Virus genome (UHGV): UHGV-0222504
Length of the DNA: 11,201 nucleotides
From: a virus
Direction: 5' to 3' (one strand)
The position numbers were made by a program. Numbering within the stretch: the stretch's first letter is position 1; every line of letters begins with the position of its first letter. Shown here in pieces: positions 9,001 to 11,201 of this stretch.

Positions 9001-11201
9001 AAATCTGACTTTTGATACCGGGGTTGTTGAATAGGCATTGCCGATTAACATTTGTCCAAAGACAGCAGACCCGCCTTCCAGTTCTTTACCACATATAACA
9101 CTGCTGTTATCAGCGTTGTAAATTATCAACCCTCTACTATTGCAGTAATTCACAAGGGCATCTTTGACTTTATCTTTTGTCGTATTTTGATAAACCCCCT
9201 CAGGTTTTCCTGATTGAGTTTTCTTTATCAATGGTACGGAAGAAGTACAACCTGAAATGATAGTTGCGCTAAGTAATAGTACAGTCATTTTATTCATGTT
9301 TCTTATCCATTGTTAAGGGCATACCTACACAATTATTTTTATTGGAGATGAATAATCAACCGTTTACAATCGTAAAAAATCAAATATGCTGTTAAGAGTG
9401 GTTACTTCGCCACACAACTTAAACCCGCCGCTGAGCGGTTTTTTTGTACCTGTAAACTTGGTGCAGTACAGTAAACACGCTGGTGGTCGTGAATACTGCC
9501 CTTTTATCTTGCTGGCTTTTTAGACAAGAGTTATTGGTATGTCATGTTAACCAGAAGGGAAAAAGACATGCTAAAACAGCAAGATATGACAGAAACCGCC
9601 GCCGCAGTCCTTCATTTCTTACCTGCTGACAAGTGGGTAACGCCACGCATGATGACGAGAACTACCGGAGTAAGCGAAGCCCGGTGCCAGTTAATACTGA
9701 CTCAGTTAGTTCTGGCGGGTCTGGCGAAGGATAACGGCGGGTACGGGAATAAATTCAGACGCTGCCAGTAATGGCGGTTTCCTGCTGTGAAAATGGGCGG
9801 CTGGTGGGTGTTGGTAGCACCTGCCAGCCATTCGCTCATGCTTACTGGTCACAAGCGAACCACGGCCCACTGCTTTAGCGCAAAAGCAGAGTGAGCCTAC
9901 CAGAGTTACGCTTACTGATCCATGAAAAATACTGTAAAAATAAACAGTGTTGATTTAATCAACGCTGATTGCCTGCATTTTATTCAGTCCCTGCCTGATG
10001 ATTCCATTGACCTGATTGTTACCGATCCGCCGTACTTCAAGGTGAAACCCAACGGTTGGGACAATCAGTGGAAAGGGGACGAAGATTACCTTAAGTGGCT
10101 GGACCACTGTCTGGCCCAGTTCTGGCGGGTGTTAAAACCTGCCGGAAGCCTTTACCTGTTCTGTGGGCATCGCCTGGCATCTGATATTGAGATCATGATG
10201 CGTGAACGTTTCAACGTGCTTAACCATATCATCTGGGCGAAGCCGTCCGGACGTTGGAATGGGTGTAATAAAGAAAGTCTGCGCGCATATTTTCCTGCCA
10301 CAGAGCGCGTTCTGTTTGCTGAACATTACCAGGGGCCATATCGCGGCAAAAGTGACGGCTATGCAGCAAAAGAAAGGGAACTCAAACAGCACATAATGGC
10401 ACCGCTGATATCGTATTTCAGGGATGCTCGTGCCGAACTGGGTATAACGGCAAAACAAATTGCCGAAGCCACAGGTAAGAAAAATATGGTTTCCCACTGG
10501 TTTGGTGCCAGTCAGTGGCAGTTGCCGAATGAGGCTGACTATCGGAAGTTACAGGCACTGTTTTCCCGTATAGCGGCAGAGAAGTTTCAGGAACAACAAC
10601 TGGAACAACCACACCACCAGCTGGTGGCATCTTATGATTCACTGAATCGCAAATATTCTGAATTGCTGGATGAGTTTAAATCTCTCCGGCGCTATTTCTC
10701 CGTATCAGTCTCCGTGCCTTATACCGATGTCTGGATGCATAAACCCGTTCAGTTCTACCCGGGGAAACATCCGTGTGAGAAACCGGCGGATATGCTCAGG
10801 CAAATAATCAATGCCAGTAGTCGACCAGGTGATCTGGTTGCTGATTTTTTTATGGGATCCGGTTCCACAATAAAAGCAGCAATGGCGCTGGGGCGTCGGG
10901 CCTTAGGTGTTGAGCTTGAGTCAGAGCGGTTTAACCAGACAGTGAAAGAGATAAACGAGCTGGTGGGGAAATAATCTGGTGGCCACGTCAGGTGGCCTTT
11001 TTATTTCCATTACACAGCACCCGCATCTGCGAGGTGGGGTTATGAAATCCATGGATAAGTTAACAACGGGTGTCGCCTATGGCACCTCAGCAGGTAGTGC
11101 CGGTTACAAGGCCACCTGACGTGGCCACCAGATTATTTCCCCACCAGCTCGTTTATCTCTTTCACTGTCTGGTTAAACCGCTCTGACTCAAGCTCAACAC
11201 C

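What the first reader, a model, noticed from the sequence alone, without database searches (positions are those of the whole stretch)
11000..11119. Small Gly/Ala/Ser-rich ORF with Shine-Dalgarno in the spacer between the inverted-repeat arms
The 108-bp unique segment between the repeat arms contains a 25-codon ORF ([25 protein letters not shown]) with a well-placed GAGGTG, ending inside the right arm. If the spacer inverts, this ORF and any promoter in it would switch orientation relative to the flanking convergent genes.
Basis: inference. Interest (0 to 1): 0.35.

Follow-up and report, generated by a model that had tools for sequence, protein, structure and literature searches.

The report
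Truncated phage holin gene start
The "small ORF" is the first 22 codons of a well-known 71-codon phage lysis (holin) gene, cut off where the sequence abruptly turns back on itself at the window end, so it is not a new small gene or a genetic switch.

Summary
A 25-codon ORF (11042-11119) with GAGGTG 5 nt upstream lies in the 108-nt spacer of a perfect 94-nt inverted repeat. The interpretation does not hold.

Codons 1-22 and the whole spacer are base-for-base the intergenic region and 5' end of essD. This is the 71-aa phage-21/434-type class II holin (pinholin/antiholin, Pfam PF04971), the first gene of the lysis cassette of a lambdoid prophage. The Gly/Ala/Ser richness is that of the holin's weakly hydrophobic first transmembrane segment.

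In 694 complete E. coli genomes the collinear match stops exactly at 11107. The last three codons (KAT) and the stop come from a reverse-complement copy of the upstream methylase 3' end and terminator. That copy runs at 100% identity to the last base of the window.

The junction is blunt. It is absent from 5,426 complete E. coli genomes and from three contig collections. No recombinase was found and no promoter-like site lies in the spacer. Because the arms are mirror images, flipping the spacer would only give the reverse complement of the same locus.

Most likely (about 0.7) the fold-back is a chimeric contig-end artefact. Otherwise it is a private inverted duplication that inactivates the prophage holin. 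Either way the finding is ordinary.

The parts
9922..10974 (+). N6/N4 DNA methyltransferase gene (350 aa). Its last 69 nt form part of the left repeat arm.
   Evidence: Pfam PF01555, E = 2.2e-42. Annotated DNA-methyltransferase in homologous prophages.
10981..11006 (+). Intrinsic terminator after the methylase gene: stem GGCCAC/GTGGCC, loop GTCAG, then a T-tract. The left arm ends 2 nt after the stem.
   Evidence: Terminator scan. RNA fold of 10965-11010 gives -19.5 kcal/mol, z = -4.1, with 0 of 200 shuffles folding as well.
10906..10999 (.). Left arm of the inverted repeat. This is ordinary prophage sequence in its normal place.
   Evidence: Collinear with all related genomes.
11000..11107 (+). 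The 'spacer'. It is the normal methylase-essD intergenic leader plus essD codons 1-22, identical to intact genomes.
   Evidence: 100% identity to E. coli Res13 over window 10600-11107. Alignment.
11031..11040 (+). Ribosome-binding region GAGGT GGGGT, two adjacent Shine-Dalgarno elements serving the two starts.
   Evidence: Phage 434B record: RBS 'for S71 antiholin product' and RBS 'for S68 product' at the homologous positions. The last 17 nt before the ATG are identical to the window.
11042..11107 (+). essD (phage 21/434-type class II holin) codons 1-22. Includes the dual start, Met1 (11042) for the antiholin form and Met4 (11051) for the holin form, and 16 of the 22 uncharged residues of the first transmembrane segment.
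   Evidence: Identical to WP_000839596.1 and to phage 434 holin residues 1-22. Pfam PF04971 positions 1-19 of 64. Hydropathy and composition.
11107..11108 (.). Fold-back junction. The forward strand at 11107 is joined to the reverse complement of 10999, bluntly, with no shared bases.
   Evidence: the true continuation is TGGTTTTT, the window has AAGGCCAC, and there is no microhomology. All homologous matches end at 11107.
11108..11201 (-). Right arm: reverse-complement copy of 10906-10999, running to the last base of the window. It supplies codons 23-25 (KAT) and the TGA stop (11117-11119), which comes from the reverse complement of the terminator loop.
   Evidence: 11108-11201 matches the opposite strand of the methylase 3' end at 100%.

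Best explanation
The ORF is not a gene of its own. It is the translation-initiation region and first 22 codons of essD. essD is the 71-codon phage 21/434-type class II holin (pinholin S68 and antiholin S71, made from two starts, Met4 and Met1), which opens the lysis cassette of a lambdoid prophage.

In intact phages the gene lies downstream of the Q antiterminator gene, in the position of a late gene. Per the literature, the protein inserts into the inner membrane with two transmembrane segments. At a set time the glycine/alanine/serine-rich first segment leaves the membrane, the second segment forms small pores, the membrane depolarises, and the SAR endolysin is released.

In this window the gene is cut after codon 22 by a head-to-head (fold-back) junction to a reverse-complement copy of the preceding 94 nt. 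That junction creates both the 'inverted repeat' and the premature stop.

The fold-back is most probably a chimeric or assembly artefact at the end of the source contig, and the true genome would then continue with essD codon 23 (Trp). The 25-residue product lacks the pore-forming second segment and part of the first, so it cannot act as a holin.

Shown: identity with essD, position of the junction, absence of the junction elsewhere. Inferred: that the junction is artefactual. From the literature: how the intact protein works.
For: Identity with essD:
- Window 10600-11107 is 100% identical to E. coli Res13 and 99.8% identical to the other listed genomes. 694 records cover at least 80% of the query, and every listed match ends at query base 508, which is window 11107. 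The annotated features are DNA-methyltransferase and essD. Phage records give the same pattern.
- The alignment shows divergence exactly at 11108.
- Intact essD translates to [28 protein letters not shown]..., 71 aa.
- Intact EssD hits PF04971 at E = 2e-35. The 25-aa ORF hits only profile positions 1-19 of 64.
- The intact protein is 100% identical to the phage 434 holin. That record annotates antiholin, holin, two RBS, a SAR endolysin and spanins.
- Eight homologues all keep 71 codons, Met1/Met4 and Trp23, with synonymous changes outnumbering non-synonymous ones overall (for example 22 versus 6).

Context:
- The whole window 1-11107 is collinear with a prophage in 276 genomes.
- Of the 10 further loci fetched, 9 carry a 71-aa PF04971 holin followed by a lysozyme gene, and 8 of them have it directly after a full-length methylase gene.

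The junction:
- It is spanned by 0 of 3,061 genomes that carry this essD 5' end.
- Its 32-mer has 0 hits in viral, genome and metagenome contig collections.
- The right arm runs to the last base of the window, and the junction has no microhomology.

Literature:
- S21 68/71 dual start and the pinholin mechanism: PMC9636201, PMC7312051, PMC9025707.
- Inverted-junction chimeras are the dominant artefact of MDA (PMC1855051) and occur in ligation-based nanopore libraries (PMC13141652).
Against: - I could not trace the source contig or its reads. That the window end is a contig end, and that the junction is an artefact, are therefore inferences.
- A de Bruijn assembler would end a contig k-1 bases into the reverse arm whether the fold-back were real or chimeric. 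The position of the window end does not discriminate between the two.
- Assemblers usually discard low-coverage chimeric paths when a well-covered true path exists.
- More than 70% of MDA chimera junctions show 2-21 nt of complementarity. This junction shows none.
- The window carries a second private lesion, a 23-bp frameshifting deletion in the PerC-family gene. That would fit a genuinely decaying prophage.
Confidence: 0.72

Rival explanations
1. The fold-back is real. In this one strain, an inverted duplication of the prophage late region joined essD codon 22 to the reverse complement of the methylase terminator. This inactivated the holin, and with it lysis, in a decaying cryptic prophage. 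The 25-codon ORF is then a real but functionless remnant.
For: - A second private lesion lies in the same window: a 23-bp frameshifting deletion in the PerC-family gene. It is absent from 5,426 complete genomes and from three contig collections.
- Holin loss is a plausible way for a prophage to become harmless (established knowledge).
- An assembler would give the same contig-end picture for a real inverted duplication (inference).
Against: - The junction is found in none of the 3,061 genomes carrying this essD 5' end, nor in any collection scanned.
- The join is blunt, with no microhomology or short inverted repeat to mediate template switching.
- The arms are 100% identical and censored by the window end.
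- From 7544 to 11083 the window has no private 25-mer at all.
- Long, closely spaced perfect palindromes are unstable in E. coli (established knowledge of SbcCD; not tested here).
Confidence: 0.22
2. One reading: a 108-bp invertible spacer carrying a small translated ORF, and perhaps a promoter, that flips between two orientations relative to flanking convergent genes.
For: A perfect inverted repeat flanks the segment, and the ORF has a real Shine-Dalgarno and start codon.
Against: - The spacer is ordinary, non-inverted prophage sequence in hundreds of genomes that have only one arm.
- Pfam scans of the eight ORFs at 5845-10974 found no invertase or recombinase, and none is annotated across the homologous stretch.
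- No promoter-like site lies in 10700-11201.
- The arms are at least 94 nt of coding sequence plus terminator, not short recombinase sites.
- With mirror-image arms, the flipped form is the reverse complement of the unflipped one. It has the same junction sequences, which are absent everywhere.
Confidence: 0.02
3. The 25-residue peptide is a functional product in its own right. For example, a free first-transmembrane-segment fragment could bind and inhibit pinholins of co-resident prophages.
For: - The start signals are intact.
- Many E. coli genomes carry several copies of this holin 5' end, up to 8 places per genome.
- From my recollection of the Young-lab work on S21, which I did not verify in a held paper, the first segment of S21 can inhibit the second.
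Against: - Only 16 of the 22 uncharged residues of the segment remain, and the hydrophobic WFLQLL end is lost.
- No other genome or phage has such a truncated frame.
- It depends on the fold-back being real.
Confidence: 0.02
4. The fold-back reflects a covalently closed hairpin telomere of a linear plasmid-prophage (N15 type) read through its tip.
For: A sequence that continues onto its own complementary strand is what reading through a hairpin end gives (established knowledge).
Against: - A hairpin tip gives a palindrome with no unique spacer. Here 108 nt of non-palindromic sequence separate the arms.
- The region is the interior of an integrated lambdoid prophage in 276 chromosomes.
- The related loci carry integrase genes upstream, and no protelomerase appears among the called genes.
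Confidence: 0.005

Closest known systems
Phage 21 / phage 434 class II holin S (pinholin S68 and antiholin S71); E. coli prophage gene essD; Pfam PF04971 Phage_holin_2_1
   Same: - Leader, both ribosome-binding elements, Met1-Lys2-Ser3-Met4 dual start and residues 1-22 are identical to the phage 434 holin and to RefSeq EssD WP_000839596.1.
- The upstream gene context is the same: Q antiterminator, methylase, terminator.
   Different: - Only 22 of 71 codons are present. The end of the first transmembrane segment, the whole pore-forming second segment and the charged C-terminus are missing.
- The SAR endolysin and spanin genes that follow in intact phages are replaced by a reverse-complement copy of upstream sequence.
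Lambda S105/S107 dual-start holin
   Same: The regulatory logic is the same. Two start codons a few codons apart give a holin and a longer antiholin with one more positive charge at the N-terminus (PMC9636201).
   Different: Lambda S is a class I holin with three transmembrane segments and forms large holes. It is a different family, with no sequence relationship claimed or tested here.
Site-specific invertible DNA switches (fimS, Hin/Gin/Cin-type invertons)
   Same: An inverted repeat flanks a short segment that contains expression signals.
   Different: - No recombinase was found by Pfam in the eight ORFs at 5845-10974 or in the annotation of the homologous stretch.
- The arms are long copies of a neighbouring gene's end.
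- No promoter-like site lies in the segment.
- The single-arm arrangement is the universal natural state.
Fold-back (inverted) chimeric junctions from amplification or library preparation, carried into contig ends
   Same: - A head-to-head join to a nearby point on the opposite strand of the same molecule.
- It is unique to this sequence and sits at the end of the available sequence.
- More than 85% of MDA chimeras are inverted sequences with intervening deletions (PMC1855051). Ligation-based nanopore libraries also yield inverted-repeat chimeras (PMC13141652).
   Different: - No microhomology at the junction, whereas over 70% of MDA junctions have 2-21 nt.
- The sequencing and assembly method of the source is unknown, and read support could not be examined.

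Membership tests
PF04971 / phage 21-type class II holin (pinholin) | Sequence match to the family profile above Pfam's gathering score | tested here: not met
   The 25-aa ORF scores 25.1 bits against a cut-off of 26 and covers profile positions 1-19 of 64. The intact homologue scores 121 bits, E = 2e-35. The window holds a fragment of a member, not a member.
PF04971 / phage 21-type class II holin (pinholin) | Dual-start motif (Met1 and Met4, with Lys2 giving the antiholin its extra charge) behind a shared ribosome-binding region | tested here: met
   MKSM at 11042-11053, with GAGGT/GGGGT at 11031-11040. Identical to the curated phage 434 annotation.
PF04971 / phage 21-type class II holin (pinholin) | Two transmembrane segments: a weakly hydrophobic Gly/Ala/Ser-rich first and a pore-forming second | tested here: not met
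   The intact protein has uncharged stretches at residues 7-28 (55% G/A/S/T) and about 35-57. The window ORF keeps only residues 7-22 of the first and none of the second.
PF04971 / phage 21-type class II holin (pinholin) | First gene of a lysis cassette: after Q and the late region, followed by endolysin and spanin genes | tested here: inconclusive
   Upstream context is met: Q at 8386-8766 and the methylase gene. The downstream genes are absent from the window because of the fold-back. They are present in relatives.
PF04971 / phage 21-type class II holin (pinholin) | Membrane depolarisation and small-pore formation | not testable with these tools
   Needs expression and physiology. Known for S21 68 from the literature.
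Invertible DNA switch (inverton) | Dedicated site-specific recombinase encoded nearby | tested here: not met
   Pfam on the eight ORFs at 5845-10974 found none. The annotation of the whole homologous stretch lists no invertase. The only recombination enzyme is RusA, a junction resolvase.
Invertible DNA switch (inverton) | Short inverted repeats that serve as recombinase sites and bound the segment | tested here: not met
   The arms are at least 94 nt, perfect and limited only by the window end. They consist of the methylase 3' coding end plus its terminator.
Invertible DNA switch (inverton) | Promoter or alternative coding end inside the invertible segment | tested here: not met
   0 promoter-like sites in 10700-11201. 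This is a consensus scan only, so a weak test.
Invertible DNA switch (inverton) | Both orientations present in natural populations | tested here: not met
   With mirror-image arms both orientations share the same junction sequences. These are absent from 5,426 complete E. coli genomes and three contig collections.
Fold-back chimera / contig-end artefact | Junction not reproduced in independent assemblies of the same element | tested here: met
   0 of 3,061 genomes with this essD 5' end span it. All listed matches and all 10 fetched loci that carry this region (L003, L006-L013 and Res13 L001) stop at 11107.
Fold-back chimera / contig-end artefact | Inverted copy lies at the very end of the contig | tested here: inconclusive
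   It reaches the last base of the window. Whether that is also the contig end could not be established.
Fold-back chimera / contig-end artefact | Weak or discordant read support at the junction, with normal depth over the arm | not testable with these tools
   No reads are available.
Hairpin telomere of a linear prophage (N15 type) | Perfect palindrome centred on the tip, with no unique spacer, plus a protelomerase | tested here: not met
   A 108-nt non-palindromic spacer separates the arms. The locus is internal to integrated prophages that carry integrases.

The most novel reading that the evidence does not exclude
The fold-back is a genuine chromosomal inverted duplication. The surviving 25-codon ORF, still carrying the holin's own start signals downstream of Q, makes a free fragment of the first transmembrane segment. 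This fragment interferes in trans with the identical pinholins of co-resident lambdoid prophages. It would be a domesticated holin stump acting as an anti-lysis factor.
Probability: 0.02. Interest if true: 0.4.

Novelty: already known. Interest (0 to 1): 0.05.

Why it matters
It matters mainly as a caution. A perfect inverted repeat that runs into the end of a sequence, with a 'small ORF' in its loop, looked like a switch. It is in fact a textbook phage lysis gene cut off by a fold-back junction. Recognising this prevents a spurious small-protein or inverton annotation.

If the fold-back were real, it would be one more example of a prophage disarmed by loss of its holin. That is biologically sensible but not surprising.

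Tried and rejected
- **Tracing the source contig, to see whether the window end is a contig end.** Exact look-ups found nothing on record for the two junction-spanning ORFs (46 aa and 38 aa) or for two PerC-deletion-spanning fragments. The HTH_36 protein is in 4,060 blocks. Of the 10 window proteins looked up, 7 sit on about 1,000 or more contigs, one (the Ash-family protein) on 231, and two were not found under the starts used. None was usable as a tracer.
- **Searching for the junction elsewhere.** The 32-mer has 0 hits in viral, GTDB-representative and JGI metagenome contigs. A 116-nt junction query has 0 spanning hits in complete E. coli genomes.
- **Using the private 23-bp PerC deletion as a lineage marker to find a sister genome with an intact essD.** No match anywhere.
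- **Looking for an RNA structure around the dual start.** The fold of 11015-11075 is not better than shuffles (z = -1.0), so no claim is made.
- **Looking for microhomology or a short palindrome that could explain a template switch at the junction.** None at the breakpoints. The 10-bp palindrome ATCCATGGAT (11047-11056) is 2 nt off the centre of symmetry, and the rest of the spacer is not self-complementary.
- **Arm length as an assembler signature.** I considered that 94 nt equals k-1 for a k = 95 de Bruijn assembly, since the last junction-spanning k-mer would be 11107-11201. This is arithmetically neat but untestable here. It would hold for a real or an artefactual junction alike, so it is not used as evidence.
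- **Hairpin telomere reading.** Rejected because of the 108-nt non-palindromic spacer.
- **NCBIfam.** It has no model that hits EssD.
- **Papers.** Two Young/Lorigan-lab papers (PMC7171912, PMC2168629) are not held.

Full report
**1. The observation**

- An ATG at 11042 opens a 25-codon frame, [25 protein letters not shown], that stops at TGA 11117-11119.
- GAGGTG lies at 11031-11036, 5 nt upstream.
- The ORF sits in the 108 nt between the arms of a perfect 94-nt inverted repeat, 10906-10999 and 11108-11201.

Two details change the picture.
- The right arm stops only because the window stops. It is still 100% complementary at base 11201, the last base.
- The two 'convergent genes' are one gene seen twice. 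The left arm is the last 69 nt of a 350-aa N6/N4 DNA methylase gene (9922-10974; Pfam PF01555) plus its terminator. The right arm is the reverse complement of exactly those bases.

**2. What the ORF is**

A megablast of window 10600-11201 against 5,426 complete E. coli genomes finds the region in 3,791 of them, and 694 records cover at least 80% of the query. Every listed match runs from query base 1 to base 508, which is window 11107. That is the last base before the right arm. The features annotated under the match are 'DNA-methyltransferase' and 'essD: phage lysis protein EssD'. Phage records give the same result, with 'holin' annotated.

Aligned with E. coli Res13 and phage mEp460, the window is identical to Res13 through 11107 and then diverges completely. 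In the intact genomes the frame continues to 71 codons: [71 protein letters not shown].
- That protein is Pfam PF04971, 'Bacteriophage P21 holin S', at E = 2e-35. The 25-aa ORF matches only profile positions 1-19 of 64 and scores 25.1 bits, just under the cut-off of 26.
- The intact protein is 100% identical to the class II holin of phage 434. The curated 434 record annotates two products, an antiholin from Met1 and a holin from Met4. It also annotates two adjacent ribosome-binding sites, which map to window 11031-11035 and 11036-11040, followed by a SAR endolysin and spanins.
- 438 phage records encode the protein, and 435 of them cover at least 80% of the query.

I compared codons in eight homologues down to 76% protein identity.
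- All have 71 codons.
- All keep Met1 and Met4.
- All have Trp at codon 23.
- Codons with synonymous changes outnumber those with non-synonymous changes over the whole gene (for example 22 versus 6, and 31 versus 13).

So the frame is conserved, but as a 71-codon gene. Only this window ends after codon 22, with Lys-Ala-Thr-stop read from the inverted copy. The stop is the reverse complement of the terminator loop.

Residues 7-28 are 55% G/A/S/T with mean hydropathy 0.7, against 1.23 for the second stretch. This is the weakly hydrophobic first transmembrane segment. The truncated ORF keeps 16 of its 22 residues and none of the second segment.

**3. Context**

Window 1-11107 is collinear at about 98% with a lambdoid prophage in 276 complete genomes. 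Annotation of one such genome and Pfam scans give this gene order:
- cI-like repressor (1290-1964, minus strand), cro-like gene, YmfL, Ash-family protein, HTH_36 protein
- PerC-family gene, Dam-type methylase, a LexA DNA-binding-domain protein
- RusA (6168-6557), KilA-N, DUF968
- Q antiterminator (8386-8766), two small hypothetical genes, the N6/N4 methylase, then essD

In ten further loci from draft and complete genomes, nine carry a 71-aa PF04971 holin followed by a lysozyme gene. Eight of those have the holin directly after a full-length methylase gene. Every locus that carries this region aligns forward up to exactly 11107, and the last 94 nt aligns to its opposite strand.

A strong intrinsic terminator follows the methylase gene: stem 10981-10997, -19.5 kcal/mol, z = -4.1. 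The left arm ends 2 nt after its stem.

**4. How the intact element works (from the literature, not tested here)**

S21 68 is the prototype pinholin. It has two transmembrane segments and forms heptameric channels about 2 nm wide. These collapse the proton-motive force and so release and activate the membrane-tethered SAR endolysin. A dual-start motif also yields S21 71, an antiholin with an extra positive charge at the N-terminus that delays triggering (PMC9636201; PMC7312051; PMC9025707). The window keeps the start signals but not the part of the protein that makes the pore.

**5. The fold-back junction**

- The join is blunt. The true continuation is TGGTTTTT and the window has AAGGCCAC. 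No bases are shared on either side, and no short inverted repeat lies at the breakpoints.
- A 116-nt query centred on the junction finds 3,061 genomes that match one half, and none that spans it.
- The junction 32-mer has no exact match in IMG/VR, in GTDB representative genomes or in JGI metagenome contigs.
- From 7544 to 11083 the window has no 25-mer that is absent from the handful of relatives fetched. The only private 25-mers in the late region are those that cross 11107/11108.

Head-to-head joins to a nearby point on the opposite strand are the signature of amplification and library chimeras. More than 85% of MDA chimeras are inverted sequences with intervening deletions (PMC1855051). Ligation-based nanopore preparations also give inverted-repeat chimeras in microbial DNA (PMC13141652).

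essD is also a repeat among co-resident prophages, with up to 8 places per genome. A short-read contig would tend to break here (inference).

I therefore think the fold-back is most probably an artefact at the end of the source contig, at about 0.7.

This remains an inference, for four reasons.
- I could not find the source contig or its reads.
- An assembler would end a contig a fixed distance into the reverse arm whether the junction were real or not.
- The junction lacks the microhomology seen in most MDA chimeras.
- The window carries a second private lesion, a 23-bp frameshifting deletion in the PerC-family gene. It is absent from all complete E. coli genomes and all three contig collections, which would fit a genuinely decaying prophage.

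The rival, a real inverted duplication that destroyed the holin, gets about 0.2.

**6. Why it is not a switch**

- Pfam scans of the eight ORFs between 5845 and 10974 found no recombinase, and none is annotated across the homologous stretch. The only recombination enzyme is RusA.
- The consensus scan finds no promoter-like site in 10700-11201.
- The arms are long copies of a gene end rather than short recombinase sites.
- The one-armed arrangement is the natural state in hundreds of genomes.
- There is also a logical point. For a perfect inverted repeat A-S-A', inversion of S gives A-S'-A', which is the reverse complement of the original. Within the arms nothing changes relative to the 'convergent genes', and both states share the same junction sequences, which are found nowhere else.

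A hairpin-telomere reading fails because the 108-nt spacer is not palindromic.

**7. Verdict**

The ORF is the truncated 5' end of a well-known holin gene. The 'inverted repeat with a spacer' is a fold-back junction that is probably artefactual and in any case private to this sequence. Novelty: already known. Interest: very low.

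Noticed in passing
window 4724-5195, deletion point at about 4835/4836: The PerC-family gene carries a 23-bp deletion relative to all related loci (AGTCAGCAAGCAAGTTACGTCAG is missing). This shifts the frame after 38 codons. The deletion junction is absent from 5,426 complete E. coli genomes and from viral, metagenome and GTDB contig collections. It is a second private structural lesion in this window.
   Followed up: yes
window 3207-3283 and 3308-3395 (+): Rfam matches above gathering score to isrK Hfq-binding RNA (64.2 bits) and C4 antisense RNA (82.3 bits). Both lie inside the 278-aa Ash-family ORF 2847-3683. This resembles a P1/P7-type c4 immunity module within a lambdoid prophage.
   Followed up: no
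window 2847-3683 (+): The Ash-family ORF is called as one 278-aa protein here and in several draft genomes. In other genomes the near-identical DNA is annotated as a 59-aa DUF4222 protein overlapping a shorter Ash-family protein of 181-192 aa. This is either an inconsistency in gene calling or a real frameshift polymorphism.
   Followed up: no
window 8851-9297 (-), promoter-like site 9316-9287: A 148-aa ORF lies on the opposite strand between the Q antiterminator gene and the late genes. It has no Pfam match and UniRef names it 'Lipoprotein'. A 10-of-12 promoter-like site lies just upstream on its strand. Its position is moron-like.
   Followed up: no
window 5162-5848 and 9922-10974 (+): The prophage stretch encodes two different DNA adenine methyltransferases. 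One is a Dam-type enzyme (PF05869 in relatives) in the early region. The other is an N6_N4_Mtase (PF01555) directly upstream of the holin.
   Followed up: no
window 11047-11056: A perfect 10-bp palindrome, ATCCATGGAT, overlaps the Met4 start codon of the holin form. It is 2 nt off the centre of the large inverted repeat. The predicted RNA structure around the dual start is no better than shuffled controls.
   Followed up: partly
window 886-982 and 6654-6774: These short stretches have no match in most related prophages fetched and are flanked by 97-99% identical DNA. They are typical mosaic module boundaries. The first lies in the region between yfdP and the repressor gene.
   Followed up: no
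window 593-617 / 657-681: A 25-nt inverted repeat, 84% complementary with a 39-nt loop, lies in the yfdP region. It was not examined.
   Followed up: no
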